A DNA stretch of 64,000 bases. It comes from Escherichia coli. Lineage in GTDB: Bacteria > Pseudomonadota > Gammaproteobacteria > Enterobacterales > Enterobacteriaceae. The stretch's first letter is position 1, and every line of letters starts with the position of its first letter. Positions 14,099 to 64,000 of the stretch are shown in pieces. The notes beneath the pieces were generated by a model. It had not been told where the DNA came from. It did not search any database and saw only the letters and a program-made list of their open reading frames with translations. The DNA is taken from NCBI RefSeq assembly GCF_024223415.1, contig NZ_CP100500.1. One strand, written 5' to 3'. Both the position numbers and the translations under genes were made by a program.

Positions 14099-14116
14099 AT
14101 CAGGCTCCGGAGAATT

Positions 14117-27578: not shown

Positions 27579-27614
27579 ACGACACTTGCAGTGGGAAAGA
27601 CGGAGGAAAATAGC

Positions 27615-28190: not shown

Positions 28191-28296
28191 CAGAAACACA
28201 GAAAAGAAGCGATTTGCCGCAATCTTAAGCAGTTGAATCGCTTTTACTGAAATTAGGTTGACGAGATGTGCAGATTACGGTTTAATGCGCCCCGTT

Positions 28297-28372
28297 GCCC
28301 GGATAGCTCAGTCGGTAGAGCAGGGGATTGAAAATCCCCGTGTCCTTGGTTCGATTCCGAGTCCGGGCACCA
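28297..28372 (+). tRNA. pheU: tRNA-Phe (anticodon GAA), pheU-type
   Basis: 76-nt cloverleaf GCCCGGATAGCTCAGTCGGTAGAGCAGGGGATTGAAAATCCCC...GGTTCGATTCCGAGTCCGGGCACCA with encoded CCA; sits where pheU lies relative to yjdC. Confidence 0.97.
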
Positions 28373-28381
28373 AATTCATAT

Positions 28382-28409
28382 AAACGGACCTCCACGGAGG
28401 TCCGTTTTT
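28382..28409 (+). terminator. Rho-independent terminator after tRNA-Phe
   Basis: aaacggacctcc-acgg-aggtccgttttt hairpin with T-run. Confidence 0.8.
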
Positions 28410-28569
28410 CGTTTCAGGACGCCACGATTTAAGCGTCCTGCCGCCAAATCAATTCTACCGAACTCAACCAGACTCCCCCCACATCAACCCCATTGTGTGG
28501 GTATAATTGCGGGTATACCCCAGTTCGACAGAATTTGTACCCTCTTTAACGCATTCAGAAGGCTGAACT

Positions 28570-47424: not shown

Positions 47425-49512
47425 TCAGAACTGATAGTTCAGCGACATCCAGTAATTTCTCTCAGGTATCACATAACCCGTTGTCGATGCCCCCGTCTGG
47501 AAGTAATCACCCGCATAAAGCGTACCACTGCCGGCACGATACAGACTTACGTCACTGTAATCCTTGTTAAGCACATTATTCACCGCTGCATTCAGCATCA
47601 GTGCATCCGTCACTTTCCACGACATGCCCGCATCCAGTACCGTCCAGGCTTTCAGATATTCACCTTTCTCATCATACACTTTCTTCTGTACAGCTGAGAG
47701 TGACGAATAATTCTGGGTGAAACGTGGCGTTTTCCCGCGGTAACGGGCACCCAGCCATGATGTCACCTCTTCAGTAATCTGCCAGTTCAGTTTCGCATTC
47801 ACCATATGCTCAGGGGTGTAACTCAGTGGTGCACCTTTATTATCCCCATCCCGTTGTTCACTCTGCGTCCAGGTATAATTCAGAGACAGAGTCACATCCT
47901 CTGACAACAGAGGCAGTGTGCCGGCAAATTCCACGCCCTGAGTCCTGGCCTTTCCGCTGTTTGTGTAGCTGCGGGTATTATCATCAATGGAATAAGATAC
48001 GATCTTGTTGGAGAATTCTGTCATAAAGCCCGTGATATTGGCGTTCAGACCGGCATGATTATCGTAATACACGCCCGCTTCATAACTGACACTCTCCTCC
48101 GGCTTCAGGTCCGGGTTACCGAGAAGATTCGTACGCCCCTGACCGGACACACCGCTGATCCCCTTATGTAACTGCCCCATGCTGGGCGCCTTATATCCCG
48201 TGGTCACCCCACCTTTCAGCGTCCACGCATCAGTCACATCCCAGACCATATATGCCCGGGGACTGAAGTGTCCTCCGAACACCTCATAGCGTTCATAGCG
48301 GCTACCCGCAGTCAGTGCAAATGCATCCGTGATATACCACTCATCCTCAACAAATGCCGACCAGCTTTTCTGACGGAAGGTTTCACCAGTACTGGCGAGA
48401 ACAACCCCGTCTTTCATGGAGGAGTTCTGATACTCACCACCGACGGTAACCTTGTGTGATTCCCCCAGAGGTGCAAACAGTAATGAGCTCAGGATAAGAT
48501 TCGACTCCTTAAGCTCCCTCGGCTGGCCGGCAAGCCCCCATTTATCACGCTGCAGTACGCTACGTACAAGCTGACGGCCTTTATTTTCCGTCTCATTCCA
48601 GTTCAGGGATGACTTCCAGGCTCCGAAGGTGAATGTATGATCATAGCCTGCTGAAATTTTATTACGCTCATAGCGCAGGGTGCGATCATAACCGCCCGTC
48701 AGACTGCCCAGCTGGCCATCTCGGTTATCATAACGCTGCCGGGCGATATCCATATCAATCCAGAGTACATCCTTGTCCGTCGCTTTCCAGTCAAGACGAC
48801 CACCTGCATTATAATTCTGTGATTCCGTGGGATAAGGGATACGCGTAGCTGAGGTGTCGCTCAGTGATGTGACCGATGAGCCCTGACGCTGCTGTGTGCT
48901 GCCACGTACCTGAAGGCTGAGTGAATCATCCACAAGGGGACCGCTGCTCCAGAAATTAAACTGGCTGCTGTTCCCCCATTTGTTACTTTCCTGCAGGTTC
49001 AGCCCGGCATTAACCGAAGAGCGCCATTTGTCTGCATTCTTTTTGGTGATGATATTCACCACGCCCCCCATGGCATCAGAGCCGTACAGAGTGGACATGG
49101 GGCCCCTGATAATCTCAATACGTTCGATGGCGGCCAGAGGTGGCATAAAACCCGTATTCATGGCAGCATAACCGTTTGGGGTTACGTCACTGCTCCCGCC
49201 CTGACGGACACCATCGATCAGTATCAGCGTATAACTGGCAGGCATTCCGCGGATGCTGATTTCCAGCCCACCTGTTTTACCCGTACCGCTTTCAACATCC
49301 ACCCCCTCTACGGATCTCAGTGCCTCCCCCAGATCATGATACTGGCTGGATCGCAAATCCTCCTGGCTGATCACTGAAACACTCGCAGCTGCACTGGTTA
49401 ATTTTTTTTCATAGCCAGACGCCGTGACTACCATCACATCTTCCGCAGCCATACTGCTGACTGAAAACCCGAGACAAGGGATGGCTACTGAAGCCAGAGT
49501 GGTTACTCGCAT
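47425..49512 (-). CDS. iha: TonB-dependent outer-membrane siderophore receptor/adhesin, IrgA homologue (Iha-like)
   Basis: 695 aa; signal peptide, TonB box region (DVMVVTAS), plug motif IERIEIIRGPMSTLYGSDAMGGVVNIITKK, C-terminal ...WMSLNYQF; closely resembles recalled IrgA/Iha. Confidence 0.7.
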   Translation of the reverse strand: MRVTTLASVAIPCLGFSVSSMAAEDVMVVTASGYEKKLTSAAASVSVISQEDLRSSQYHDLGEALRSVEGVDVESGTGKTGGLEISIRGMPASYTLILIDGVRQGGSSDVTPNGYAAMNTGFMPPLAAIERIEIIRGPMSTLYGSDAMGGVVNIITKKNADKWRSSVNAGLNLQESNKWGNSSQFNFWSSGPLVDDSLSLQVRGSTQQRQGSSVTSLSDTSATRIPYPTESQNYNAGGRLDWKATDKDVLWIDMDIARQRYDNRDGQLGSLTGGYDRTLRYERNKISAGYDHTFTFGAWKSSLNWNETENKGRQLVRSVLQRDKWGLAGQPRELKESNLILSSLLFAPLGESHKVTVGGEYQNSSMKDGVVLASTGETFRQKSWSAFVEDEWYITDAFALTAGSRYERYEVFGGHFSPRAYMVWDVTDAWTLKGGVTTGYKAPSMGQLHKGISGVSGQGRTNLLGNPDLKPEESVSYEAGVYYDNHAGLNANITGFMTEFSNKIVSYSIDDNTRSYTNSGKARTQGVEFAGTLPLLSEDVTLSLNYTWTQSEQRDGDNKGAPLSYTPEHMVNAKLNWQITEEVTSWLGARYRGKTPRFTQNYSSLSAVQKKVYDEKGEYLKAWTVLDAGMSWKVTDALMLNAAVNNVLNKDYSDVSLYRAGSGTLYAGDYFQTGASTTGYVIPERNYWMSLNYQF

Positions 49513-49561
49513 ATCTTCTCTCCGATTATATTAATCAGAGAGAAGATAAACAAACGCAAGA

Positions 49562-49580
49562 GATAATGAGAATGATTTGC
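49562..49580. promoter_or_regulatory. Fur box upstream of iha-like receptor
   Basis: gataatgagaatgatttgc, 15/19 match to Fur consensus GATAATGATAATCATTATC, about 50 bp upstream of the receptor start. Confidence 0.65.
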
Positions 49581-49824
49581 TTTTGGTTTTTACATAAAAA
49601 AGTAAAAAATTACAAAATATTACATAAGGTTCTACTATACCCCGAATTTCAGTTGAGGACGTTCTTTTCTCTAGGGGAAAGTAACGGATAGCAATCGTTG
49701 ACGATCCATATCGGATTTTTGCACTATGGGTATTTATCCAATCTTTATCAGTTTCTTGTCCTTGGATATGTTAATCATACACTATCGGATATTTCGTACA
49801 TCAGACAGGTGAATATAATTAATA

Positions 49825-50109
49825 ATGAGGAGTTTTATGGACAATAGAACAATTACTCTGCAGGAATTACTCGAGTACATGTCAATGCTTCGAGACGACA
49901 TGAATGCTCTCACGGTTGCATTTTCATATCTGGCTTCATCGCTTCCTAAGGAACAGATGATACAAATACTGGCATTCATTCATTTTGAATCAAATAATTC
50001 CAGATGGTCTTCAGAACAGCAGAAATCTTTCAAATGGCTAGCATCACTACTGGAGGGCTGTTATACAGTTCACACAAACATTTTTGATATACCATCAAAG
50101 AACCACTAG
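49825..50109 (+). CDS. Hypothetical small protein (AT-rich, island cargo)
   Basis: 94-aa ORF with ATG start, divergent from iha-like gene; no recognisable motif. Confidence 0.3.
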   Translation: MRSFMDNRTITLQELLEYMSMLRDDMNALTVAFSYLASSLPKEQMIQILAFIHFESNNSRWSSEQQKSFKWLASLLEGCYTVHTNIFDIPSKNH

Positions 50110-50432
50110 TACATTATGATACATTCCCTCTGAAATATATTTCTACTTTGAGCGCCTCTGACTTTATGAGGCGCTTTGTCCAGCAAACCAAACATACTCG
50201 CTGGAAACAGAGTAAAGTATTATTATCCCCGATACATCTATATTTTACAACAGCGCATCCATATATTAATTAACGATGCAGTTAAGTTCCCCATTCTACC
50301 CAATTTACTGTTTTTGTTGTTTGAAAGAAGACTCTCATTAAGTGAGAGCCATCTGTAAGTATCCCGCATAATCGCTCCATTCATATTTAGAGATCATCCG
50401 GAATAATCAATCTGATAACGAAGAAAATCGCT

Positions 50433-50558
50433 ATGCGTAAAGCCCGTATTACTGAGTATTAGATCATCGCTGTAATTAAATCGGTTGAAACCGGACGAAC
50501 AATTAAAGATGTTTGTCGGGAAGCCGGTATTTCTGAAGCCACTTACTACATCTATTGA
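50433..50558 (+). pseudogene. IS3-family orfA fragment with in-frame stops
   Basis: MRKARITEY*IIAVIKSVETGRTIKDVCREAGISEATYY - HTH region typical of IS3-family OrfA. Confidence 0.5.
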
Positions 50559-50773
50559 CTACCTCAGTTTTGCAAGCACTGATTCTGGTTTTGGATTGTT
50601 GCTTACATCTATCCGGCATCAGGAAAACCTGTGCCCAAATAGGGAATCCACACACAATCGCCTCTACAACTGGACGACCTCTGAGGCCAGTACAAAAATC
50701 AGGTTCCGATTGTGCAGGTGCAACCCGTCACCATTTCTCAGTACGCTGCAACTTTTGCTGAAAGAGATTAACT

Positions 50774-51250
50774 TCACACTGCCTGATATTCTGTATCATT
50801 TATCAGCATCGACCAGATTATTCTCGCGTATTTGTTAGCAATCTCCACAGTAGTTTTATTAAATTCGCGACTCTCCTTTAACTGCTTAACCCACTGATTT
50901 AGGTATACATCATTATTATTCGTAGCAACTCTAACGACAGCACGGACGCCATGAATAAAAAGTGTTTGCAGATGCTTGTCGCCTTTTTTCGTTATATTCA
51001 TGAGAACTTACCTGCAGCAACTCTAGTGCAGGCATGGAAGCAGACCAAGCCATGCAGCACAGTGACGATCATTCTTAAATTCAGTGCCTTTGCCAATAAT
51101 AACAGCAACAACGCTCGTGACAATTTCAGGACCAATGCCTTTAGCTTTTGCAATACGCTGACAGCATTCAGATTACCTGGACAGGTCTCTATTTATTTAT
51201 CAAAAAAGTTTATACTACGACCGAGATCGTTAAAGAGATCATCTAAATAG
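50774..51250 (-). pseudogene. IS110-family transposase C-terminal fragment with internal stop
   Basis: ...AKAKGIGPEIVTSVVAVIIGKGTEFKNDRHCAAWLGLLP... then ...KKGDKHLQTLFIHGVRAVVRV...ANKYARIIWSMLIND. Confidence 0.55.
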
Positions 51251-52380
51251 CTGCGCCTAATACCACTACACTTTTGCCAGCCCATGTTTGCCTCCGGGGA
51301 ACGGGCTGATGGTTTCCATAAAATGGCGAATTTTTTTCAACAGTTGCCACATTGAGCGGCACTGATGATTACGCGTTATTGTGTCGTGAAGTGCCTGCCA
51401 TAGCCGTTCAACATGATTCACCCATGGCAAGTAAACCGGCTGATAAATGACCCTGAACTTCGGGTTCTCCTTCAACCAGCGCTGTGTTTCCCGGCTTTTG
51501 TGGATAATGTAGTTGTCCACGATCAGTGTGATGGTTTTCACCCGAAGGTATGTCGCTTTAAGCCGCTTCAGCAGGCTGATGAACAGCGCCGAACTTTTGC
51601 TGTTGCCGCCCACATAGCTGACTTTACCTGTCCCGCTGTGCAGCGCTCCGGCCAGATCATATTTTTCATTCTGTCCCGGCGTGACCACCCGTTTTTGCTG
51701 TCCGCGCAGTTGCCAGTCCGCACCGATTTTGGGATTAAGATGGATATCCACTTCATCTTCATAAAAGACCGGATGCTCTGTGCTGCATTCGTCCAGTGCT
51801 TTATGGATTGCTGCCATCTTTTCATCTTTATGCGGGTCACGGATACGCAGAGTTGGCGCAGCCCTTCGCCACACAATCCCCGCAGACGGCAACCAGCGGC
51901 GAACGGTTCCGGCATTTAACTGGCAATCGGTTATCTCATTGATTTTTATTGCCAGCAGTTCTGTACTCCAGCGTGAACGCTGGTAGCCAAAGTCGCCGGG
52001 AGAATGTTTTACCAGCTCACGTAACAGTGTGCAGATATGCTCAAACGACCAGAGACGGGCTCGCCCGGCAGGTAATGATTTCAGTCCCTCAACACCCGAC
52101 TGCGTGAACCAGTTAATCCAACATCCAACAGAGGAACGGGCGCAGCAGAGCGTTCTGGCAACGTCGCTGACACGGTCGCCCCGGTGCAGCATCAGCATGG
52201 CAGTCAGTCTGCGGGCATAATTTTTATCGTGTGTTTTATGGATGGCTTTCTGCATCAGGCGTCGTTCGTCACGGGAAATTGGTGCTATGATCGGCATTGC
52301 TCAGTCCGGTTGGTGATTTGTTTTGATTTGGCGATTGATCAGATCGCACAATCCAGGCTGAGCTCCCTCAAAGTGATCTA
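51230..52380 (-). mobile_element. IS630 copy (boundaries approximate)
   Basis: Contains intact 343-aa transposase matching recalled IS630; element is about 1.15 kb; exact ends and TA duplication not resolved. Confidence 0.7.
51266..52297 (-). CDS. IS630 transposase
   Basis: 343 aa MPIIAPISRDERRLMQKAIHKTHDKNYARRL...HGLAKV. Confidence 0.9.
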   Translation of the reverse strand: MPIIAPISRDERRLMQKAIHKTHDKNYARRLTAMLMLHRGDRVSDVARTLCCARSSVGCWINWFTQSGVEGLKSLPAGRARLWSFEHICTLLRELVKHSPGDFGYQRSRWSTELLAIKINEITDCQLNAGTVRRWLPSAGIVWRRAAPTLRIRDPHKDEKMAAIHKALDECSTEHPVFYEDEVDIHLNPKIGADWQLRGQQKRVVTPGQNEKYDLAGALHSGTGKVSYVGGNSKSSALFISLLKRLKATYLRVKTITLIVDNYIIHKSRETQRWLKENPKFRVIYQPVYLPWVNHVERLWQALHDTITRNHQCRSMWQLLKKIRHFMETISPFPGGKHGLAKV

Positions 52381-52639
52381 CTATTCCGCGCAGCTATTTA
52401 GTTCCGCTATCGTTCTGCACATACAAGCTCTTAACTCGTTTATGCATCCTCAAGGCTCAGCAGAATAGCTGTCAGCGCCAATGATATAAGACAGTAATGG
52501 GGATGCGGACGATTTCCTGGACTCTCAGGAGATGAAACATGTTTACTGAAGAAGAAAAAATCCGCGCCATTGAGCTTTATTTCAAATATGTGACCCGTCC
52601 TGAATAGCGTTGACACGTTCCTACTTAAATCCGGAGAAC

Positions 52640-53870
52640 GTAATGATGACTTAGCTCAAACGCACCCAACGTGATTATCCTCTATCCTTTAAAATAGCTG
52701 TTGTTGAGCAGGTTGAAAAAGGCGAGATGACTTATAAACAGGCCCAGCAGCGGTATGGCATTCAGGGGCGCTCCACCGTTCTTGTCTGGTTACGTAAATA
52801 TCCTGGACTTCCTGAGCTGGTGAAGAGGAAACTGCCTGTGACTCAGACAACTATCCCGCTCACACCCGAGCAAAGAATCAGGGAACTTGAAACGTAGCTT
52901 GAGCTGGCGAACCAGAAAGCTACGTTTTTTGAGTCAGTTATCAATGTCCTGAAAAATGATTACGGGGTGAGTATCGTAAAAAGCGGCCCGGCAAGTCCTC
53001 GCGCAAAGTCCGGTCCCCAAAATAACTGTGACGCGTGCAGTCTGTTCCTGGGACACAGCAGACAGGCATGGTATCAGGACAATGCAAGGCGCAGAAAACG
53101 GCAGGAACATCATGCTCAGGTTCTTGATTTTGTTGCCCGTGTCAGATGTCGTCAGCCCCGAATCGGTGCGCGTAAGCTGCACTATCTGCTGAACACTCAG
53201 GCCGATAAAAGGCTGAATATCGGGCGAGACCGCCTGTTTAACCTGCCCGATGAATACCGACTCCTGGTGCCAGTAAAACGGTCATATCACAAAACTACCA
53301 ACAGCCATCATCGCTTCTACCGACATCCAAACCTGCTTAAACCAGGCCCTGAACAGGTTACTGCTCTTGAACCAGAACAGGTCCGGGTCGCCGATATTAC
53401 TTACCTTCCACTGCGCAATAGTTCGGCCTATCTGAGTCTGGTCACCGATGCCTGCTCCAGAAAAATTATGGGCTACCATGTTGGGGAAAACCTGCAGACA
53501 GAAAATGTGGTAAAAGCGTTCAGACAGGTGCTGAAGCTGAGAAAAACGACGAGTCCCCTGGTGCATCATTCTGGCAGGGGCTGCAATACTGTTCAGCGCT
53601 CTATCAGTCAGTTCATGAAAGAAATGAAATAACCTGTTCAATGACTGATGGTTATGACTGCTACCAGCATTGGCTGAGTGAATAAATGGTACCCTGAAAA
53701 ATGAGTTTTTACTCTCGCGTCCTGCAGACCTGGCTCAGGCCCGGGAAATGGTCCAAGAGTCCGTGGCAATTTATAACCATGAGCGGCCACACCTGGCTCT
53801 GAAATACAAAACGCCCTATGACGTTCATCAGGCGTTTTACAGACAGAAAAGTGTCAACTTATACCAAGAC
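52640..53870 (+). pseudogene. IS3-family element, orfA/orfB broken by stops and frameshifts
   Basis: Segments ...RDYPLSFKIAVVEQVEKGEMTYKQAQQRYGIQGRSTVLVWLRKY..., ...RIGARKLHYLL..., ...VAIYNHERPHLALKYKTPYDVHQAF... Confidence 0.6.
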
Positions 53871-53876
53871 TAGTCA

Positions 53877-54493
53877 ATGGTAAGAAGCTGGCTCCCGTCG
53901 TACGCGAACTGGGCTACCCTTCGAAAAGAAATCTGCGGCGTTGGATCCGTTCATAGGAATCAGGTGGCGGAGCAAAAGAATCCATTCGCCATAAGCCCCG
54001 TTACACAGATGAGCAAAAACAAGTTGCCGTTGAACATTATCTTAACCACGGCTGCTGCCTAGCGTTTACCAGTAGAACTCTGGGTTATCCCTGTACCGAT
54101 GTGCTCGCTCGCTGGGTTAATGAACGTTACCCCGGCAGACGACGTATATTTACCAGTAAGACCAGTCCGGTTGCGCCCTTTGAACCAGAAGTCAAACGTC
54201 AGGCTGTCATGGCATTCTGTACACGACAAATATCAGCCAGTGAAATCTCTAGGCGTATTGGTGTCAGTCGTGCGGTATTGTATAAATGGAAAGATGAAAT
54301 TATCGGCAACAGTGCTTACCAGACTATGCGTAAACATAACGAACCTTCCCTGGAGGCAGAACGCGATGCGTTGCGGGAGGAAGTCGCCCGACTGAATCAG
54401 GAAATACGCCGCCGGCAGATGGAACTGGATATTCTGAAAAAAGCGGAGGAAATCATAAAAAATCTATGGTCACCCCCGTTTTTGCTACACTGA
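53877..54493 (+). pseudogene. IS3-family orfA (HTH + leucine-zipper), one internal stop, truncated at slippery site
   Basis: ...VAPFEPEVKRQAVMAFCTRQISASEISRRIGVSRAVLYKWKDEI...EVARLNQEIRRRQMELDILKKAEEII then non-IS sequence. Confidence 0.6.
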
Positions 54494-54895
54494 TTTTTGA
54501 TTAATGGTGGGCTTGCTTAAATCTATCCGGCGTCTCTGTGGACAAGGAGACCCGCGCCTCGATGAGTTCCGCACCTGATAATCCTAAAAAGACCCTCGGC
54601 TTCAGTGAGCCATTTTTTCTGTCAGGTTTTTAATCAGGTCTATTTGCCGTTCATGTCATCAATAATCAGTCTTCGCAAAACCAGACAGGTAACTTGTATC
54701 TTATTTTTTAAAATAAGCTAATTGAGTTTTGTCAGTATCTATATCAGGCCTGATATTCTTTGTGCAGAGCAGTGATTGCCCAGGCTATTCGGGCCAGTTT
54801 ATTTGCCAGAGCGCAGGCGACAATATTTGAATGCTTATTGTCGAGTTGCTTTTGAACCCATTCAGCAACTCTGCCCTATTGATGCTCCAGCCGCA

Positions 54896-55740
54896 TCATG
54901 AACGAGCGGGCGTACAGAACAAGTAACCGACTCGTTTGCTGATCCCCAGCAGCATTGATTTACCACCGGTACTGTATTGTCGGGGAACAAGTCCTGTGGA
55001 TGCTGCAAAATCCCTACTGCACGAAAATTGTTTACCATCACCAAGCTGGGATGATAGCAGGCTGGCCGTCATCGGCCCAACACCGGGGATTGTCATGATT
55101 CGTTGCACAGTAGCGTCAGCTTTGATTGACTGGTTTAACTCTGATTCCAGTTCTGTTATTTGCTCAATACGATAAAGATAGTGAGCATGTAATTTCATCA
55201 GCAAGCGACTCAGATATTCAGGTATTTCGTGTTCAGCTAACGCCAGAGACAACCATTTTATTGCGGCATCCCCTGTCGGCAGTCTGATTCCAAATTCCAG
55301 CAAGAAACCGTGGATCTGGTTGGTTTTTTTCACCTTATCTCTGATGAGCGATTCTCTGACCCGGTGTAATGCCCTCATTGCCTGCTGGGTTTCTGTTCTG
55401 GGCTGGACAAAACGCATTGATGGTCGTGAAGCCGCTTTGCATATGGCTTCTGCATCAATAAAATCATTCTTATTACCTTTGACAAACGGACGCACGAATT
55501 ACGGAGAGATAAGTTTTTCTTCATGACCGATGTCGCTGATACGCCGGGCCATAAAATGCGTACCAGCGCAGGCTTCCATAACAACTACTGAGGATGGACA
55601 TGTTGCCAGAAACTGCATCAGCTTCGTACGCGTAAACTTTTTACGCAAAAGCGCATTGCCAGATTTATCTTGACAATGAATATGGAAAGAATGTTTACCG
55701 AGATCGATACCAATAAGCGCAACGTTTTACATGATGGTGC
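54896..55740 (-). pseudogene. IS110-family transposase (N-terminal and central parts), frameshifted and 3'-truncated; inserted between orfA and orfB of an IS3-family element
   Basis: 199-aa ORF with ...MTIPGVGPMTASLLSSQLGDGKQFSCSRDFAASTGLVPRQYSTGGKSMLLGISKR... plus upstream N-terminal piece in another frame. Confidence 0.6.
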
Positions 55741-55780
55741 CCTCTAAAATAACCCACCCTGTCAGCGTACCGCTCACAGG

Positions 55781-56689
55781 GTGGGGGTGACCATCTCATT
55801 AGACCCGGGCATCAGTATCAGTCACCTAAACAACAGAGAAAAAACAAATATCGCTGATGCCCTGAGACAAACATATCCCCTGACAGAATTACTGCATGTT
55901 CTGGGCCTTGCCCGTAGCAGTTATTTTTATCACCGGGCTGCACTGAAAGCCGGTGATAAATACGCCACGATACGTACGATGCTGACAGATATAGTTAACA
56001 GTAATTACCAGTGTTATGGCTATCGTCGCCTGCATGCGATGCTCAGGCATGAGGGGGTCAGCTATCAGAAAAGGTTGTAAGCAGACTTATGGTGAAGGAA
56101 CAGCTTGTCGTCAGCCGTAACCGTCGTCGCCGCTACAGCTCATATTGCGGAGAAATCGGACCGGATCCGGATAACCTTATCGCCAGAGATTTTAAGGAGG
56201 ACCAACCTAATCAGAAATGGCTGACAGATATAACGGAGTTCCAGCTTCCTGCAGGAAAAGTCTGGCTGTCACAGGTGGTGGACTGCTTCGATGGAAAAGT
56301 TGTGAGCTGGTCTCTCAGTACACGCCCCGACGCAGAACTGGTTAACGCTATGCTGGATAACGCTGTCAAAACGTTAAATGCTGGCGAACGACCGATGATA
56401 CACAGTGGCAGAGGTGGGCATTATCGCTGGCCAGGCTGGCTGGCTGGAAAGAGTTAATGCCGCAGGTCTTATTCACTCAATGTCCCGTAAGGATGATGCC
56501 GCATGCGAAGGCTTTTTCGGCAGACTGAAAACGGAAATGTATTATGGGCGTAAATGGTCGGGCATCATGCCGGAAAAGTTCATGCAGCATGTGGATGCTT
56601 ACATCAGAGGGTATAACGAGCGGCGTATAAAATTATCGCTGGGTGAAGACAGCCCTGAAATGTACCGCCAACAATGTAGGCTGGCATAA
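55781..56689 (+). pseudogene. IS3-family orfB split into three frames
   Basis: ORFs 55781-56080, 56089-56457, 56405-56689 together give a DDE transposase (...WLTDITEF..., ...SMSRKDDAACEGFFGRLKTEMYYGRKW..., ...YIRGYNERRIKLSLGEDSPEMYRQQ). Confidence 0.65.
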
Positions 56690-57279
56690 TAAAGAAGTCC
56701 AGGAAATCGTCCGCATCCCCAAAACGGCCAATAATCTTGGCGTTGACATAGCACGACGATCTCTTGAAACTACCGCGCCGATAGTTATTCCCCAATCAAG
56801 CAACAGTCCCCTGATTTGACAAACGGTCACATTAACAATATGCTGCCTTGCCCGGTGCAAAGCGTAGATATCCTGTTGTTCCGAGCTTTTTGGAGGCATG
56901 AACAGCATTGTCGGTTACATCAGAAGCACTGCGATGGCCTGTGCATCATTACCGTCATTTTTTGCCCACAGACAAAGGGAGTTACATACTGTGGGTTGAG
57001 GACCTTTACGTTATGCCCCAGTTTTTTAAATTCACTCTGCCAGTAAAATTCCCATGTGGATGCCCTACATCAATTAGGAAGGCCGGAATATTCGCCACTA
57101 TTTGGAGTAATTCTTTTCGGCCAATACGTTTTGAATAAACCGGATTACCGACCTAATTTAACCCGCAGAGCTGAAAGATATTTTTATCCAGATCAACACC
57201 CAGGAATACGATATTCATTGTGATTCCCCTGCTGAGTGAGTGCATTTCGTACAGTTAACCGCAGAAGGAGGGGGTACTC

Positions 57280-57980
57280 CATTCCATGAACTGGAAGCCC
57301 AGATACGATGCATAGAGTCACCTGATATTAAAAAGAACGAGGATCTTGAGGACGAGAACCGACGTCCAAAACAGATGCTTGCCGACCTTAGCCTAGAGAA
57401 CCGGCATTGAAAGACATTATCGAAAAAAGCTTTAAAACCAGCCTGTAAGCGTGAGCTTGTTACTCATCAGATAACGACATTTGGACTCAGTGTCCATCAG
57501 GCCTGCCGGAGTCTGAACCAGAGCAGAACGGTTTCCCATTACCGTCCGGATACCACGTGGTACGACCCCGTTATTGTGGTGGTGCAGGCAGTGGACGAGC
57601 GATATCCTCGATACGGTTTTTCAAAACTTTTTCAGGTTCTGAGGCAGCAGGTTCGCGGCAAATCGCAGTTATCCGGTCATGCTGCGCATAGATAATGGTT
57701 CGGAATTTATCTCTCTAACGCTGGCTGAATGGGCTGATATACACGCAGTAAAACGGGAGTTTATCCAGCCGGGTAAGCTGACGTAGAACGCTTTTATTGG
57801 GCGTTTTAACAGGACACACCGTACAGAAATACTCGATTTTTATCTGTTCAGAACGCTGAATGAAGTTCTAGAAATTACGGAGAAATGGTTATCAGAATAT
57901 AGCTATGAACGCACACATGAATCACTGAACAATAAGACGCTGGAAGAATATCGACGACACCATTATTTGACCAAGATATA
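57280..57980 (+). pseudogene. IS3-family transposase remnants (heavily degraded)
   Basis: Fragments ...LTLAEWADIHAVKREFIQPGKLT.NAFIGRFNRTHRTEILDFYLFRTLNEVLEITEKWLSEYSYERTHESLNNKTLEEY... across several frames. Confidence 0.5.
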
Positions 57981-58140
57981 AAAATGCATGGAATTAAAAC
58001 GGGGCATATTTATATATGAATAACACAACTATATCGCTAAGGTAAAGGTGTATCCAAACGGAAAATACAGCACTAACAGCATATATTCATCCAAATTAAT
58101 AAAATATGACCGAGAACATAGAATATTAAACATTTTTAAA

Positions 58141-59400
58141 TTATGCTTTTCTCGCTAACGCTTCTATATCCGAAAAATACTCTTTAATTCCCTCTAGGAT
58201 AGATTCTGCCACTTGTTGTTGGAATCTTGCCGTTTTCAGTTTGCGCTCTTCCTCAACGTTACTGATAAACGCCGTTTCGACCAGAATGGAGGGAATATCA
58301 GGTGCTTTCAGCACGGCAAACCCGGCCTGTTCAACCTGATTTTTATGCAGCTTGTTGATTTTACCGAGCTTATTCAGCACCGCTTTACCCAACTTCAGGC
58401 TGTCGGCAATGGTCAGAGACTGCACCATATCGAACATGGTGTGGTCGACATAGCGGTCACCGCTTTTGCTCACGCCGCCAATCAAGTCCGAGGCGTTCTG
58501 GGTTTGTGCCAGATATTTTGCCGCAGTACTTGTCGCGCCTTTGGTCGAAAGCGCAAACACGGAAGAACCGCTCGGCTGGCGACTGGTAAAGGCATCAGCA
58601 TGGATAGAAACAAAAAGGTCAGCACGTTGTTTCTGTGCTTTTGCTACACGCACTTGCAACGGAATGAAGATGTCTTCATTGCGCGTCATGTACACCTTCA
58701 TATTACCCTCTTTTTCGATCAGAGAGCGCAGACGGCGAGCTATTTGCAATACCACGTCTTTTTCGCGTGTTTTGTATTTCCCCACCGCACCGGGGTCTTC
58801 GCCACCGTGGCCGGGGTCAAGCATAATGACAATCGGACGATCACGCCCTGCTTTACCCGGTTGTGGACCACTTTGTGCTGGCGGCACCTGCTTTTCGAGG
58901 TCGCCTTTGTTGTAATCCTCCAGCAGCGCCAGCAGCGGGTCCTGCATATCCTGTGCATTGGCCGGATAGAGGTCCATCACCAGACGCTCTTTAAACCCGG
59001 CGACCGGCGCAAGGGCAAACAGCTGCGGTTTTACGTTTTGCTTTAATTCAAAAACCATGCGTACGGTTTGCGGGTCAAATTGCCCGACGCGCGCCGACTT
59101 GATGAACGGGTCGTCTGCACGAATTTGTGCCGCCATCCCCTTGAGTACCGAGTTCAGGTTTACATCTTCGATATCCACCACCACACGTTCAGGGTTACTT
59201 AACGCGAACTGCTTATATTGCAGCTGACGATTTGATTCTACCGTCACGCGGGTGTAGCTGGACGCAGGCCAGACGCGTACCGCCACGACCTGGCTGACCG
59301 CAGCCAGGCTGACCTGACTTACGCTCAATAGCCACATGGCGCCCGCACCTTGCAGTAAACGACGACGGCTGATTACATAATTATAGTTAGATACCAGCAT
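58141..59400 (-). CDS. amiC: AmiC-family N-acetylmuramoyl-L-alanine amidase (Tat signal, AMIN domain, Amidase_3 domain)
   Basis: 419 aa; twin-arginine motif [24 protein letters not shown]; catalytic-domain segments [18 protein letters not shown] and SIHADAF; close to recalled AmiC but N-terminal residues differ; ATG at 59398-59400. Confidence 0.75.
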
Positions 59401-60054
59401 ACCTTACCTAAGCAATACAATGTTCAATAATATAACTATGCTCTAATAAATTTTTACAGGTGTTTAAAGAAATAATCACACGTATTCTTATCTTTGCAAT
59501 CTAATCTAATTTTAAATAAAGGTCAATATCTTATTTTTTTGATATAAGTTTTCTTAAATACCACGATATAAAAACATTTTATTTAAGTGATTTCTTTTAG
59601 TTTGCTTTTCAAATAAAAGGGATGTACTCATGACATTTTAAATATGTACATCATGCACAGCAATATTATAGTTTTTTATCTGATTACTGAGAAGTATCTA
59701 TCAATAGAACAATGTTTTTTAGTTTGTATAGGGAAGAGTTGGGTTGAATTGAGAATAAAAACTAGAGATTACTGGGGAAGGAACTTTTCAAATCCGAAAT
59801 CATGGTCTACAATGAAAAAATGATGTTCTAAGTATTCCTATCATGAATAAGAATGCACCATATTTTGAATAGTATAATTTTATATTTATATATCCTTTAC
59901 TGTACGATGATGATATTTTATACCTGAATGACAAGGGTGTTATTTTATACCACATATAAATTTGCAGAAAATATAAAATGAGAAGCACTGAATAATCGCG
60001 GCTTCTGGCTATGATTTAAATGCTTTTACATTTTTTCAAAGTAAATTCAGTTCA

Positions 60055-60265
<211 letters not shown>

Positions 60266-61342
60266 TCAAGCAGTTATCGGGGTGCTGTTGATCTGCCTGT
60301 TTTGATTACGCAGTAATGTATAAACTTCGTGTGAGATATAGCGCTTCAGGCTGCGTATTGTTTCCATTTTTGTATGCCCTTCCGCTACTCGTCTGGCGAC
60401 ATATTCCTTCGTTTTATCGTCAGTTCGCAAACGTCCGATGGAAATGATGTGAAGTGCACTATTTGCAGCACGATCTCCACCCCGGTTAAGTCGATAACGA
60501 TTCGTTTTTCCTGAAGATACGGGAACAGGGCTGACACCACACAGTGCCGCAAAACCTGATTCTGATCTTAATCGTTGGGGATTGTCTCCGGCAGTGATCA
60601 GCAACTGTGAAGCGCTTTCGTATCCAATAGCATTACGTTTAATCAGTGCAGGTGCCAGCTCATCCACAATTGCCGCAATCATAACATCCAAATCAGCGAT
60701 TTCGTCATGTAACTCGAGATAGCGTCGGGCAAGGGACTTTAATGAAATACGATAAACGTTGGTAACATTGAGCTATTCACTGGCATCAGGCCGCCAGGAT
60801 CTCAGAGTCCTGATGAGCTGCATGCGCGTCATATTTCTGAGCTGTTCACGTAATTCATCCGGGGCAGAGATAATATTGGAATGGTTAATCTGGAGAGCGA
60901 CTCAGCGGGCTGATATTGCTGTTTTTCGGCAAGTTTTTAATACCCGCAGAGACTCAATCATACCATTGCGCGTTTTGGGTGTGACAGTTCTTATTCCGGA
61001 GCATGCGGCGTGAGCGGCACATTCAGCATCAATCGTGTCACTTTTACCCCGTTTGCGTCGCTCCATCCGATCTGGCACAGCCACCTCAAGAACTTCTAAC
61101 CCGGCATTCTGTAAATAGCGAAGCAGACCTGATCCATAGGTGCCTGTACACTCAACACCAATTCGCTTTAATGCCCCAAACGAAGCCATCCATGCCAGCA
61201 TCTGCCGGTAACCTTGCCGTGTTGTGGAGAAAAACGGGGTCCCCAGAACTTTATTGTTCTGATCTACGACAGCGGCAACGTGCAGATCTTTATGTATATC
61301 CACGCCACCCACAACAGCGGTTTCCGTAACTTTACCTGCCAT
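60266..61342 (-). pseudogene. IS110-family transposase in two pieces (frameshift in 60692-60901)
   Basis: N-terminal ORF 60902-61342 (MAGKVTETAVVGGVDIHKDLHVAAVV...) and C-terminal ORF 60266-60691 (...LCGVSPVPVSSGKTNRYRLNRGGDRAANSALH...). Confidence 0.6.
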
Positions 61343-62010
61343 AACAGAGCTCCTGTGAGGAAACAGAGTTGAATCTCCAGACAGATAACCCGGACAGGAC
61401 AGTAACGAGACAAGCCGTCAGGCCCTTCTTGAGTCACGCGCATCGGTGAGGAGACGCCTCGCATGAAGGCGTTTCCGACATCCTCTCTGTTCATCGGCAG
61501 ATAGCCTATTTCATCCAGGATCAACACCCGGGCATAACTCAGTTGCTGTAGCTGACGCTCCAGCCGGTTTTCCTGTTTCGCTTTCATCAGTGTCGCGATC
61601 AGTCTGTCCAGTGGCATAAACAGTACCCGATGTCCCGCATCCACCGCTTTCACGCCAAGAGCTATGGCCAGATGAGTTTTTCCGACACCAGGAGGTCCCA
61701 GCAGGATCACGTTTTCGCTGCGCTCCACGAACGCCAGACCAGCCAGTTCCCGGACAACCTTACGGTAGATGCCCGGCTGGAAGGTAAAGTCGAACTGCTC
61801 CAGCGTTTTGACCCACGGCAGACGAGCCTGCTTCAGCCTGGACTCCATACCGCGCTGATGCCTGCCGTTCCATTCCTGCTGTAGCGCCATGCACAGGAAC
61901 TCCCGGTAGTTCAGCTCTTTTTTAGCTGCCTGTTCCAGCAGGCTTTCAACGTGATAACTCAGATGCTCCATTTTCAGGCGACTCAGCAGGACTTCCAGCT
62001 CATGCATCAC
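61264..62010 (-). pseudogene. istB: IS100 (IS21 family) IstB ATP-binding helper, C-terminus replaced after DEIGYLPMNRE
   Basis: N-terminal 170 aa match recalled IS100 IstB incl. Walker A GPPGVGKTH; downstream sequence unrelated, coinciding with the adjacent IS110-family element. Confidence 0.7.
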
Positions 62011-63179: not shown

Positions 63180-63226
63180 GTTGATGTCCTTTCTGGTGTG
63201 AGAACCTTAAGGAAACAACATGTTGG

Positions 63227-63565
63227 GTGGAGCGGACAATCCAAATGGTGAATTACCGTCTTATATCACTGGCGCTGACAGGCTTTAACGGCCTGTCCTC
63301 AAAAGTTCAGAACGTCCTGAAGGATGACCCGTTCTCCGGGCATATCTTCGTCTTCCGGGGCCGCAGTGGCAAAATGGTGAAAATACTGTGGGCCGATCGT
63401 GATGGGTTATGCCTGTTCGCCAAACGCCTGGAACGGGGCCGCTTCATCTGGCCGGTGACCCGGGAAGGGAAAGTGCACCTGACGCCAGCTCAGTTATCCA
63501 TGCTACTGGAGGGGATCGCGTGGCAACATCCCAAACGGACAGAACGGCCTGGCATCCGGATATAA
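63227..63565 (+). pseudogene. IS66-family TnpB (orf2), probably 5'-truncated by IS100
   Basis: ...FNGLSSKVQNVLKDDPFSGHIFVFRGRSGKMVKILWADRDGLCLFAKRLERGRFIWP... matches IS66 TnpB core; N-terminal residues do not. Confidence 0.65.
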
Positions 63566-63584
63566 CCCGTTGCAAAGCGAGTAT

Positions 63585-64000
63585 ATGGACACCTCACTTG
63601 CTCATGAGAATCCCCGCCTGCGGGCACTGTTGCAGACGCAACAGGACACCATCCGCCAGATGGCTGAATACAACCGCCTGCTCTCACAGAGGGTGGCGGC
63701 TTATGCTTCTGAAATCAACCGGCTGAAGGCGCTGGTTGCGAAACTGCAACGTATGCATTTCGGTAAAAGCTCAGAAAAACTTCGCGCAAAAACCGAACGA
63801 CAGATACAGGAAGCACAGGAGAGAATCAGCACACTTCAGGAAGAAATGGCGGAAACGCTGGGTGAGCAATATGACCCGGTACTGCCATCCGCCGCCCTGC
63901 GTCAGTCTTCAGCCTGTAAACAGTTACCGGCCTCACTTCCCCGTGAAACCCGGGTTATCCGGCCAGAAGAGGAATGCTGTCCTGCCTGTGGTGGTGAACT
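63585..64000 (+). CDS. IS66-family transposase TnpC, 5' part (runs off window)
   Basis: MDTSLAHENPRLRALLQTQQDTIRQMAEYNRL...leucine-zipper-like N-terminus then CPACGGE zinc-finger start, typical of IS66 transposase; ORF open to window end. Confidence 0.75.
   Translation, partial: MDTSLAHENPRLRALLQTQQDTIRQMAEYNRLLSQRVAAYASEINRLKALVAKLQRMHFGKSSEKLRAKTERQIQEAQERISTLQEEMAETLGEQYDPVLPSAALRQSSACKQLPASLPRETRVIRPEEECCPACGGE

What the first reader, a model, noticed from the sequence alone, without database searches (positions are those of the whole stretch)
50400..57980. IS graveyard with nested insertions
Within 8 kb lie an IS3-family orfA fragment, an IS110-family fragment, an intact IS630, a degenerate IS3-family element, and an IS3-family element whose orfA and orfB are separated by an IS110-family insertion at the slippery site. 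A second cluster at 60090-64000 holds IS3, IS110-family, IS100 and IS66 copies inserted into one another. Such density marks a recombination hotspot and explains loss of island cargo.
Basis: partly seen in the sequence, partly recalled or inferred. Interest (0 to 1): 0.4.

Follow-up and report, generated by a model that had tools for sequence, protein, structure and literature searches.

The report
Nested insertion sequences, partly RNA-guided
This stretch of an E. coli genomic island is a dead "Russian doll" of jumping genes inserted into one another up to five levels deep, and three of the insertions are by elements that home in on conserved sequences of other jumping genes; this is an ordinary kind of structure and not a demonstrated recombination hotspot.

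Summary
85% of window 50356-64000 is IS-derived, and 55 complete E. coli genomes carry the same 14 kb at ≥99.8% identity.

Cluster 1 (50356-58014) is not a row of fragments. It is one five-level nest: IS3-family E contains IS1111-type C. C contains IS630 and a 55-bp IS21-type mini-element G. G contains IS3-family B. B contains IS3-family A and IS1111-type D. Removing each inferred insert restores a sequence that exists uninterrupted elsewhere.

Cluster 2 (60112-64000) holds an IS3 orfB stub, an ISEc21-type element, a truncated IS21-family element and an IS66 fragment. The IS21-family element is ISEc62-like, not IS100. Cluster 2 contains one real deletion scar.

All three IS110/IS1111-type elements sit in conserved IS3 gene sites:
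- C sits at the orfA "ATYY^NWK" codons.
- D sits in the A-run at the orfA/orfB boundary.
- F sits at the "HSD-GSQY" catalytic codons, which is the published ISEc21 target.

The non-coding regions of C and D carry copies of their own targets, and these copies change with the target in relatives. That fits the published seekRNA/bridge-RNA mechanism.

"Recombination hotspot" is not supported. The structure is stable, has no internal repeats, and in two related strains has only gained inserts. Ordinary overall; C's IS3-orfA specificity appears unreported.

The parts
50356..50550 (+). E, left arm. Outermost IS3-family element: IRL (TGTAAGTATCCCGC...) plus orfA up to the '...EATYY' codons.
   Evidence: The healed E (left arm joined to 57290 onward) aligns end to end with an intact ~1170-bp IS3 relative at 87% identity, reading straight through the C insertion point.
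57290..58014 (+). E, right arm: the rest of orfA ('NWKPRYD...'), orfB with a ~281-nt internal deletion, and the right end. It contains the Rfam isrN match at 57434-57576 on the minus strand.
   Evidence: Alignment with L015. isrN scores 138 bits here and 159 bits inside the intact relative's transposase gene. No target duplication is seen: CATC on the left versus TATG on the right.
50551..51245 (-). C, piece 1. IS1111-type IS110-family element: right end, ~230-nt downstream non-coding region and the C-terminal part of the transposase. The guide-like segment S2 lies at 50664-50674 (CTACA|ACTGGA on the + strand).
   Evidence: The healed C (1360 nt) matches ~1305-bp elements at 81% identity in one place in 90 records. 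A transposase alignment is colinear in one frame across the healed junctions. S2 is an 11-nt exact copy of C's own target.
52401..52469 (-). C, piece 2, lying between IS630 and G. It ends with the TAGC copy at 52466-52469.
   Evidence: It aligns contiguously with C relatives L010 and L011, which lack both IS630 and G.
56749..57289 (-). C, piece 3: the second TAGC copy (56749-52), the N-terminal part of the transposase, and the left end with its sub-terminal repeat and 7-nt extension (...GGGGGTACTCCAT + TCCATGA on the + strand).
   Evidence: junction comparison with L010-L014.
51246..52398 (-). IS630-family element, 1153 bp, with an intact 343-aa transposase ORF (51266-52297). It is inserted in C at CTAG, with TA duplicated (51244-45 and 52399-400).
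   Evidence: Inverted repeats I3. Pfam DDE_3 and NCBIfam NF033545 over the full length. C relatives read through the site.
52470..52497 (+). G, left half. A 55-bp mini-element made of IS21-family termini (TGTCAGCGCCAATGATATAAGACAGTAA), inserted in C with the 4-bp duplication TAGC.
   Evidence: It is absent from C relatives. It matches 28 of 30 nt of the IRL of the IS21-family element at 63252-63281. A contiguous 51-bp copy exists in plasmid NZ_CP159687.1.
56722..56748 (+). G, right half (AAACGGCCAATAATCTTGGCGTTGACA).
   Evidence: It is identical to the right terminus of ISEc62 in L004.
52498..52590 (+). B, piece 1. IS3-family element with a long orfA: IRL (TGGGGATGCGGACGATTTCCTGGACT) and the start of orfA.
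   Evidence: A 26-nt perfect inverted repeat pairs it with 56696-56721. The healed B (1596 nt) matches contiguous ~1606-bp copies at 94% identity in 858 records. An intact relative reads through both junctions.
53877..54462 (+). B, piece 2: the second ATG copy and the rest of orfA, up to the A-run at the orfA/orfB boundary (A6 at 54457-54462).
55802..56721 (+). B, piece 3: orfB (integrase core) and IRR.
52591..53876 (+). A. IS3-family element of 1286 bp, degenerate (frameshift and stop codons), inserted in B's orfA with a 3-bp duplication ATG (52588-90 and 53877-79).
   Evidence: Terminal inverted repeats TGACCCGTCC... / ...GACTAGTCA read from the sequence. An intact B relative has ...AAATATGGTAAG... 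uninterrupted. Pfam rve hit.
54463..55801 (-). D. IS1111-type IS110-family element, 84% identical to ISSfl8 and 95% to unnamed E. coli copies, with the transposase a pseudogene. It has 12-bp sub-terminal repeats (ATGGTCACCCCC) with 3-nt and 7-nt extensions, and no duplication. Guide-like segments are S1 (54613-54621) and S2 (54586-54595).
60112..60246 (-). H. An IS3-family orfB stub ('GSHYT...NEW') that forms the right-hand half of F's target. It is truncated on its left.
   Evidence: 97% identity to the IS3 fragment flanking ISEc21 copies elsewhere. Pfam rve_3 hit.
60247..61483 (-). F. An ISEc21-type IS110-family element, 97% identical to annotated ISEc21 copies, with an internal stop. It retains 1237 of ~1375 bp; the outer 138 bp of the upstream non-coding region are missing.
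   Evidence: The published ISEc21 seekRNA region is bp 8-179 (PMC11187229).
61481..63280 (-). IS21-family element, 84% identical to ISEc62 and not IS100. istA is intact (390 aa, 62007-63179). istB is cut after nt 527 of 795, and the right end is missing. IRL lies at 63252-63280.
   Evidence: The 3-nt overlap with F at 61481-61483 marks a deletion scar, because both partners are truncated.
63281..64000 (+). IS66-family fragment: tnpB from about codon 15 onward, followed by the start of tnpC. It runs off the window. Its left end and tnpA are absent.
   Evidence: Pfam TnpB_IS66 hit. The annotation of the identical locus continues into an IS100 insertion beyond the window.

Best explanation
**What it is.** The region is an old, inherited and largely dead pile of insertion sequences, built by successive precise insertions of one element into another.

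**Order of events, inferred from the nesting.** An IS3-family element (E) landed in the island. An IS1111-type element (C) inserted into E's orfA. IS630 and a 55-bp IS21-type mini-element (G) inserted into C. An IS3-family element (B) inserted into G. Another IS3 element (A) and a second IS1111-type element (D) inserted into B.

**Two processes explain why the elements pile up here.**

1. *Targeted insertion.* This step is inferred from sequence and from published experiments on relatives. The three IS110/IS1111-family elements (C, D and F) are site-specific. Each encodes a DEDD recombinase and a non-coding guide RNA (seekRNA / bridge RNA) that pairs with both strands of a short target. Their targets are conserved stretches of IS3-family transposase genes:
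   - C targets the orfA codons ATYY^NWK.
   - D targets a CATAAAAA^GnCCC-like motif, which B carries at its orfA/orfB A-run.
   - F (ISEc21) targets the codons around the second catalytic D (HSD-GSQY).

   An IS3 element therefore attracts these elements.

2. *Neutral survival.* This step is inferred. The DDE-type insertions (IS630 into a CTAG site; A, B and G) landed in DNA that was already non-functional. They cost the host nothing and so persisted.

**Current state.** Apart from IS630 and one istA ORF, every transposase gene is now a pseudogene. Cluster 2 additionally suffered at least one deletion, which fused a truncated ISEc21-type element to a truncated IS21-family element.
For: **Nest anatomy (shown directly)**
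- Each healed element matches uninterrupted copies elsewhere: B in 858 records (alignment), C in 90 records (alignment) and E.
- A transposase alignment is colinear in one frame across C's healed junctions.
- Target duplications are ATG for A, TA in CTAG for IS630 and TAGC for G.

**Site-specificity (shown directly)**
- D-type copies of 95% and 84% identity sit at the identical position in B-type IS3 elements. Chromosomal copies sit in look-alike sites.
- C-type copies in 5 E. coli loci, plus all 10 elements with the C-type end found in a one-genome-per-species scan of other genera, split GIS(E/D)A(T/S)(Y/F)Y^NWK in IS3 hosts with different sequences.
- L010 and L011 elements are 86% identical, but their hosts share no nucleotide similarity. 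L007's D-type element is 84% identical to D while its host is 92-94% identical. These arrangements are independent events.
- F-type copies flank CAY AGC GAT AG|GGC AGT CA in different IS3 hosts. This matches the experimentally shown ISEc21 target (PMC11187229).

**Guide RNA (sequence evidence)**
- At one conserved position in the non-coding region, each element carries a junction-spanning copy of its own target:

| Element | Segment S2 |
|---|---|
| D, L006 | GGGTC^TTTTT |
| L005 | GGGCC^TTTTT |
| L008 | GGGGA^TTT |
| L009 | GGGGC^TT |
| C | TCCAGT^TGTAG |

- The two variable columns track the target in 4 of 5 D-type variants.
- Matches of 8-11 nt were reached by 3-99 of 5000 shuffles.
- RNAalifold places S1 and S2 on opposite sides of one internal loop, and the variable columns cluster at the guide segments.
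- The order of the segments and the downstream position of the non-coding region fit the published IS1111-type seekRNA.
- End structure fits as well: sub-terminal repeats, a 7-nt extension and no duplication.

**Stability and additive growth**
- 55 genomes carry the region at ≥99.8% identity. Two strains have extra nested inserts and no annotated loss.
Against: - No RNA or transposition data exist for C- or D-type elements. The guide role of S1-S4 is inferred by analogy with ISEc11, ISPa11, ISKpn4 and ISEc21.
- S1 lies in an A-rich stretch, and its register shifts by 1-3 nt between relatives, so its covariation is ambiguous.
- L007's S2 has one mismatch to its target.
- The consensus fold has almost no compensatory changes (1 pair), because the sequences are too similar.
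- The D-type clade is not IS3-specific. Most relatives sit at CATAAAAA-like sites outside IS elements. For D, 'targeting of IS3' means that B happens to carry a matching site.
- L006 and the window's B::D could descend from one event (95% versus 95% identity).
- The 'neutral sink' component cannot be tested with these data.
- E lacks a target duplication, and cluster 2 has a deletion scar. Not everything here is clean insertion.
Confidence: 0.8

Rival explanations
1. One reading: the IS density marks an active recombination hotspot. Homologous or transposase-mediated recombination among these copies repeatedly rearranges the island and has removed its cargo.
For: - Cluster 2 contains a junction at which both partners are truncated: F has lost 138 bp of its left end, and istB is cut at nt 527, with a 3-nt overlap.
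- H and the IS66 element each lack one side.
- E has no target duplication.
- The same nest module occurs in islands at pheU (this window) and at pheV (SMS-3-5), so the module has moved between islands.
Against: - There are no repeats longer than 30 nt within 49500-64000.
- 55 genomes carry the 14 kb unchanged at ≥99.8% identity.
- The two variants examined are longer, with no annotated loss.
- All six insertions in cluster 1 heal exactly.
- All transposases except IS630 and one istA are pseudogenes.
- All 56 close matches (≥99%) to the F region, and the three that were listed, show the same deletion junction, so it looks like a single old event.
Confidence: 0.12
2. Pure neutral accumulation. 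Insertions land at random across the genome, and only those falling in already dead DNA survive. On this view the nest needs no target specificity.
For: - This plausibly explains A, B, G and IS630, which belong to DDE families with short or weak target preferences (TSDs of 3, about 3, 4 and 2 bp).
- Extra IS3 and group II intron insertions in related strains show that the region tolerates further hits.
Against: It cannot explain why C-, D- and F-type elements recur at the same nucleotide position in unrelated IS3 hosts and genera. It also cannot explain why their non-coding regions contain copies of their own targets that vary along with the target.
Confidence: 0.06
3. The recurrent 'IS110-in-IS3' arrangements are single ancestral composites, such as B::D and E::C, that spread as units. 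They would not be repeated targeted insertions.
For: L006's D-type element and its B flank are both ~95% identical to the window's. That is compatible with one shared event. A disrupted IS3 can be mobilised in trans by intact copies.
Against: - C-type hosts differ completely in DNA and partly in protein sequence (NWKAKFGGME, TWHKKYGGIS, NWRMKTSD...), while the elements themselves are closely related.
- L007's element has diverged about twice as much as its host.
- ISEc21 insertion into this IS3 site has been reproduced experimentally.
Confidence: 0.02

Closest known systems
ISEc21 (IS110 family) and its seekRNA-guided insertion into IS3-family transposase genes (Siddiquee et al. 2024, PMC11187229)
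   Same: F is 97% identical to annotated ISEc21 copies. [quoted passage not shown]
   Different: The window's copy is dead. It has an internal stop and has lost the outer 138 bp of its left end, which is most of the published seekRNA region (bp 8-179). One half of its IS3 target has been replaced by a truncated IS21-family element.
IS1111-family elements with a downstream seekRNA (ISEc11, ISPa11, ISKpn4/ISPst6; the IS4321/IS5075/ISSfl8 clade)
   Same: C and D share these features with the family:
- a DEDD transposase (PF01548 + PF02371);
- a long non-coding region downstream of the gene;
- 12-bp sub-terminal inverted repeats with a 7-nt extension at the left end;
- no target duplication;
- fixed orientation in a specific target;
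- target-matching segments in the non-coding region, in the published order.

 D is 84% identical to ISSfl8, which that paper places in the IS4321/IS5075 clade.
   Different: The targets differ from those published (Tn21-family inverted repeats, attC sites, REP sequences, GTGAAAATACTG).
- C-type elements sit only in the IS3 orfA ATYY^NWK codons (15 of 15 relatives examined, plus the window's own copy).
- D sits in the A-run at the orfA/orfB boundary of one IS3 lineage.

I found no report of either target in the library searched. Both window copies are pseudogenes, and C is itself split into three pieces.
IS621 / IS110 bridge RNA recombinases
   Same: The principle is the same: one structured RNA from the element's non-coding end carries loops that pair with target and donor DNA, giving programmable, duplication-free insertion.
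   Different: In IS621 the RNA is encoded upstream of the gene, and the core dinucleotide is shared between donor and target. For C and D the RNA region is downstream, and I could not identify a shared 2-nt core at the junctions.
IS-rich mosaic regions of tRNA-Phe genomic islands in E. coli (GI-pheV; PMC11537424)
   Same: The setting is the same: a P4-type integrase next to tRNA-Phe, gene modules such as iha separated by insertion sequences, and a mosaic structure. The nest lies within the 91.9-kb island that the paper delimits in SMS-3-5.
   Different: In the window the island is in the dsbD-yjdC (pheU) context, with a different integrase from the SMS-3-5 pheV island. In the passages I read, the paper does not dissect this IS nest.

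Membership tests
IS1111 family (for elements C and D) | A DEDD-type transposase with an N-terminal RuvC-like domain and a C-terminal IS116/IS110/IS902 domain. | tested here: met
   D's ORF fragment hits PF01548 and PF02371. The healed C aligns colinearly with an intact 334-aa IS110-family transposase over residues 60-334. Both are pseudogenes.
IS1111 family (for elements C and D) | The long non-coding region lies downstream of the transposase gene. It lies upstream in IS110 proper. | tested here: met
   D has ~280 nt downstream versus ~60 nt upstream. C has ~230 nt downstream. The criterion is taken from PMC11187229.
IS1111 family (for elements C and D) | Sub-terminal inverted repeats with a 7-bp extension at the left end, and no target-site duplication. 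| tested here: met
   In D, the repeats ATGGTCACCCCC / GGGGGTGACCAT lie 3 nt and 7 nt from the ends (in the transposase orientation, TAATGAG precedes the left repeat). C has the same layout. An intact B relative shows that no bases were duplicated.
IS1111 family (for elements C and D) | Insertion at one specific target, in one orientation. | tested here: met
   C-type: 5 E. coli loci plus 10 of 10 elements from a cross-species scan lie at the same codons. D-type: the identical site in three B-type hosts, and look-alike sites elsewhere.
IS1111 family (for elements C and D) | The non-coding region encodes a seekRNA holding segments that match both strands of the target. The RNA is made, binds the transposase and is required for movement. 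| tested here: inconclusive
   Target-matching segments that vary with the target are present, and the predicted fold places them in one loop. Expression, binding and requirement cannot be tested with these tools. S1 is ambiguous.
ISEc21 (for element F) | High nucleotide identity to ISEc21, and an upstream non-coding region. | tested here: met
   97% identity over 1263-1269 nt to copies annotated 'IS110-like element ISEc21 family transposase'. The upstream region is present but truncated.
ISEc21 (for element F) | [quoted passage not shown] | tested here: met
   Relatives are flanked by ...CAY AGC GAT AG and GGC AGT CA..., which encode H-S-D-R-G-S-Q/H. The window keeps the GGC AGT CA half (H). 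The other half was lost at the scar.
   blastn against the IS100kyp copy of the identical locus gives only a 44-nt match. The element is 84% identical to ISEc62 over 913 nt. IstA is 390 aa.
IS630 (51246-52398) | About 1.15 kb in size, a DDE_3 transposase, terminal inverted repeats, and TA duplication in a CTAG target. | tested here: met
   The element is 1153 bp with a 343-aa uninterrupted ORF that matches NF033545 over its full length. Its 32-nt inverted repeats are 78% complementary. The junction reads ATC[TA]...[TA]GTTCC. Identity to the reference IS630 sequence was not checked.
IS3 family (elements A, B, E, H) | An orfA with a helix-turn-helix motif plus an orfB with an rve integrase core, TG...CA-type inverted repeats and a 3-4 bp duplication. 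| tested here: met
   Pfam HTH_Tnp_1 / HTH_28 and rve / rve_2 / rve_3 hits. Inverted repeats were read for A, B and E. A has the duplication ATG. B's duplication is ambiguous (TAA versus AAA), and E has none.

The most novel reading that the evidence does not exclude
Three separate IS110/IS1111 lineages have each evolved guide RNAs against a different conserved site of IS3-family transposase genes. The sites are the orfA ATYY^NWK codons, the orfA/orfB A-run and the catalytic HSD-GSQY codons. On this reading IS3 elements serve as their preferred landing pads, and these elements act as hyper-parasites that disable IS3 copies. Only the ISEc21 case has been described. The C lineage would be an unreported, apparently obligate IS3-orfA-targeting IS1111 element found across several genera (Escherichia, Dickeya, Edwardsiella, Cedecea, Rouxiella, Mangrovibacter).
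Probability: 0.45. Interest if true: 0.45.

Novelty: new member of a known kind. Interest (0 to 1): 0.3.

Why it matters
As a genome feature this is ordinary. IS-rich mosaic junctions are typical of E. coli tRNA-linked islands, and this one is a stable, dead relic.

Two things make it mildly useful:

1. It is a clean worked example showing that an apparent 'graveyard of fragments' can be a perfectly ordered nest. This matters for annotation. RefSeq lists about ten unrelated partial pseudogenes here, where there are seven elements with exact boundaries.

2. It shows that part of the nesting is caused by guide-RNA-directed IS110/IS1111 elements that home in on IS3 genes, and not by chance. That adds two natural guide-target pairs to the published ISEc21 case. 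One of them (the C lineage, targeting IS3 orfA) is strict across genera. Such natural re-targeting examples help in understanding the guide rules of these recombinases, which are being developed as genome-editing tools.

Tried and rejected
- **Rfam.** Searching the whole window at gathering threshold, and 50300-58100 at E ≤ 0.1, found no curated family for the non-coding regions of C or D. The only hit was isrN, which turned out to be part of E-type IS3 elements.
- **Shared core dinucleotide.** I first read 'CT' on both sides of D as a duplicated core. The intact B relative has no CT at the site, so the CTs belong to D. I could not identify a shared core for C or D.
- **Pre-insertion state.** Joining E's two flanks and searching 5,426 genomes found none with the flanks adjacent. 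E's insertion, and any associated loss, cannot be reconstructed.
- **The 30-nt inverted match between 52469-52498 and 63252-63281.** I first thought it was a chance match or an IS110 feature. It is the IRL of an IS21-type terminus, and it led to recognising G.
- **Cross-species scan.** The end motif I used was broader than intended. It was still decisive for the C-type class.
- **Structure covariation.** RNAalifold on six D-type sequences gave a plausible fold but only one compensatory pair, which is too little divergence to test the structure. The single-sequence fold of C's region was not significantly more stable than shuffled sequence (z = -1.5).
- **Naming.** A, B, C, D, E and G could not be given ISfinder names, because RefSeq product names are family-level only.

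Full report
**Context.** The window is E. coli. Positions 50000-64000 match 55 complete genomes over at least 80% of their length, and the 15 best hits are all 99.8-99.9% identical. A tRNA-Phe gene (28297-28372) follows dsbD and yjdC, which is the pheU neighbourhood in K-12, and is followed by a P4-type integrase gene. The finding therefore lies about 22 kb inside a tRNA-Phe genomic island, just past the siderophore receptor/adhesin gene iha (47425-49512). In strain SMS-3-5 the same IS region lies inside the 91.9-kb island delimited at pheV by PMC11537424. That island has speC-yqgA upstream and a different integrase.

**Check of the observation.** Transposase-derived sequence is present as claimed. 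Pfam and NCBIfam assign ORF fragments to IS3 (HTH + rve), IS110 (PF01548 + PF02371), IS630, IS21 (IstA/IstB) and IS66 (TnpB). RefSeq annotates the identical locus as a string of transposase pseudogenes. IS-derived DNA makes up 11,548 of the 13,645 bp from 50356 to the end of the window.

**Anatomy of cluster 1 (50356-58014).** Reading the junctions suggested that the 'fragments' are the split arms of nested elements. I tested this by deleting each inferred insert and asking whether the healed sequence exists uninterrupted elsewhere. All six tests passed.

| Healed junction | Result |
|---|---|
| A and D removed from B | Healed B (1596 nt) matches contiguous ~1606-bp IS3 copies at 94% in 858 records. 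An intact relative reads ...TTCAAATATGGTAAGAAG... and ...ATCATAAAAAAAGACCCGGGC... across the two junctions. |
| IS630, G and B removed from C | Healed C matches ~1305-bp IS110-family elements at 81%, in one place in 90 records. An intact transposase aligns colinearly in one frame across the junctions. |
| G within C | The C alignment exposed 59 extra nucleotides. They form a 55-bp mini-element with IS21-type ends (TGTCAGCGCCAA...TTGGCGTTGACA) plus a 4-bp duplication TAGC. |
| B removed from G | G's halves match the two termini of an ISEc62-type element. A contiguous 51-bp copy exists in another plasmid. |
| C removed from E | Healed E aligns with an intact IS3 relative straight through the C site. 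E also has a ~281-nt internal deletion. |

The structure is E ⊃ C ⊃ {IS630, G ⊃ B ⊃ {A, D}}. That is seven elements on five levels, with exact coordinates in the parts list. A has a 3-bp duplication (ATG). IS630 duplicated TA in a CTAG site. C and D made no duplication. E has none, and B's is ambiguous.

**Anatomy of cluster 2 (60112-64000).**
- F is 97% identical to annotated ISEc21 copies.
- On F's left is a 135-bp IS3 orfB stub, H.
- On F's right, homology to ISEc21 stops at 61483, 138 bp short of the element's end. Homology to an IS21-family istB begins at 61481, after only 527 of 795 nt. Both partners are truncated, so this junction is a deletion scar.
- The IS21-family element is 84% identical to ISEc62 and has no real similarity to IS100. 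It interrupts an IS66 tnpB near codon 15, and the left part of that IS66 element is absent.
- In the 99.9%-identical E41 locus, a genuine IS100 lies about 190 bp past the point that corresponds to the window's end.

**Why the elements are nested: the IS110/IS1111 insertions are targeted.**
- *D.* Independent D-type copies of 95% and 84% identity sit at exactly the same position in B-type IS3 elements (ATCATAAAAAA|...|GACCCGGGC). Chromosomal copies sit in similar sites: AGAAAAA|GGCCCGC, GATGAAA|TCCCCAC and AAAATAA|GCCCCAC.
- *C.* All five C-type copies examined in E. coli sit at ...TACTACA|...|ACTGGAAG..., the ATYY^NWK codons of IS3 orfA. One of them is in an IS3 host with no nucleotide similarity to the others.
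- *C across genera.* A scan of one genome per bacterial species found ten elements with the C-type end, in Dickeya, Edwardsiella, Cedecea, Rouxiella, Mangrovibacter and others. All ten follow G-I-S-(E/D)-A-(T/S)-(Y/F)-Y codons. Where the other end was present, it was followed by N-W-K-type codons. Synonymous and amino-acid differences between hosts show these are separate events.
- *D's clade.* The same scan showed that D's wider clade follows a general CATAAAAA motif in many non-IS contexts. For D, B simply carries a matching site.
- *F.* ISEc21-type copies sit between CAY AGC GAT AG and GGC AGT CA, the H-S-D-R-G-S-Q codons, in different IS3 hosts. Siddiquee et al. demonstrated exactly this target experimentally (PMC11187229).

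**Guide-RNA evidence.** That paper shows that IS1111-type elements encode, downstream of the transposase gene, a 70-100-nt seekRNA. It has a segment complementary to the target's top strand lying 5' of one complementary to the bottom strand. These elements have sub-terminal repeats with a 7-bp left extension and make no duplication. C and D fit on every structural point.

At one aligned position of the non-coding region, each element carries a junction-spanning copy of its own target (segment S2):

| Element | S2 |
|---|---|
| D, L006 | GGGTC^TTTTT |
| L005 | GGGCC^TTTTT |
| L008 | GGGGA^TTT |
| L009 | GGGGC^TT |
| C | TCCAGT^TGTAG |

The two variable columns track the target in four of five D-type variants. 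Matches of 8-11 nt were reached by 3-99 of 5000 shuffles. A second segment upstream (S1) matches the opposite strand of the right flank. It is A-rich and its register shifts, so I treat it as suggestive only. RNAalifold places S1 and S2 on opposite sides of one internal loop around a conserved hairpin, and the variable columns of the region cluster at the guide segments. There are too few compensatory changes to test the fold. No RNA or transposition data exist for these two lineages, so the mechanism is an inference from close analogy.

- 'Recombination hotspot' is not supported. There are no internal repeats above 30 nt. The 14 kb is near-identical in 55 genomes. All cluster 1 junctions heal.
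- The two longer variants examined gained inserts, with no loss seen in their annotation. Both have an IS3 element carrying a group II intron inside B's orfB, and LR-31 also has an intact IS3 inside D's non-coding region.
- 'Loss of cargo' has only local support: the F/IS21 scar, the one-sided H and IS66 fragments, and E's missing duplication. No pre-insertion state exists in the collection.

**Comparison with known systems, and novelty.** IS-rich mosaic junctions in tRNA-Phe islands are well known (PMC11537424). IS110/IS1111 target specificity and its RNA basis are established, and ISEc21's preference for IS3 genes is published. Two things appear to be new within the literature I could search. 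One is that a second lineage (C) is strictly specific for a different IS3 site across genera. The other is that a third (D) uses the A-run of one IS3 lineage. These are new members of a known kind. ISfinder, which I could not query, may already record them.

**Verdict.** The structure is an ordinary, stable, nested IS relic, and its nesting is partly explained by guide-RNA-directed targeting of IS3 genes. Interest is 0.3.

Noticed in passing
window 57434-57576 (- strand); L015 619-761; L010 2454-2596: The Rfam isrN 'Hfq-binding sRNA' model (RF01396) matches over its full length, inside and antisense to the transposase gene of E-type IS3 elements. It scores higher in an intact relative (159 bits) than in the window (138 bits). 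The family appears to be a segment of this IS3 lineage and not an independent sRNA gene.
   Followed up: partly
window 58141-59400 (- strand): The gene between the two IS clusters is a full-length amiC (a cell-wall amidase) carried on the island. Over the region compared, it is about 93% identical in DNA to the core amiC found in 5425 of 5426 genomes. Only 59 records carry this island allele at ≥99% identity. It is a second, diverged copy of a cell-division amidase gene.
   Followed up: partly
window 52470-52497 + 56722-56748; L016 2501-2553: A 55-bp mini-element consists of just the two termini of an ISEc62-type IS21-family element and is flanked by a 4-bp duplication (TAGC). A contiguous 51-bp copy occurs in an unrelated plasmid. 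It may be a mobile miniature derivative, or a recurrent internal deletion product.
   Followed up: partly
L002 343-1875 (intact relative of element B): In intact B-type IS3 elements, orfA and orfB are fused in frame through an A7 run, giving a 511-aa reading frame with one stop codon in this copy. The 'slippery site' of this lineage may therefore not require frameshifting.
   Followed up: partly
L021 6036-9594; L022 4515-5728 and 7349-10907: In strains L26 and LR-31 the same nest carries further insertions. An IS3 element containing a group II intron lies inside B's orfB. In LR-31 an intact IS3 with a programmed-frameshift pseudoknot lies inside D's non-coding region. Nesting reaches six or seven levels there.
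   Followed up: partly
window 25800-29832 versus L143 (SMS-3-5 3192500-3199500): The nest-bearing module is at a dsbD-yjdC-tRNA-Phe (pheU-type) site in the window, with a 420-aa integrase. In SMS-3-5 it is at a speC-yqgA-tRNA-Phe (pheV) site, with a different 394-aa integrase. The module has been exchanged between islands at the two identical tRNA genes.
   Followed up: partly
loci L023-L142 (cross-species scan): The right-end motif TCTATGGTCNCCC is shared by IS1111-family elements across Photorhabdus, Yersinia, Pseudomonas, Burkholderia, Cupriavidus and others. Most of these copies follow a (C)ATAAAAA-like left flank. This suggests an ancestral target preference from which the B-site use by D is derived.
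   Followed up: no
window 54520-54531 and 50606-50617 (segment S4); 54553-54561 (S3): Two further conserved segments of the non-coding region match the element-end/target junction: GGATAGATTTAAGC in D-type and GGATAGATGTAAGC in C-type, against ATAGA|TTT and ATAGA|TGTA. A third resembles the left target (CGGGTCT). They may recognise the donor ends. Their role was not worked out.
   Followed up: no
window 14116-14162 (- strand): A Guanidine-II (mini-ykkC) riboswitch match, 50 bits against a gathering threshold of 32. It lies in the core-genome part of the window and is unrelated to the finding.
   Followed up: no
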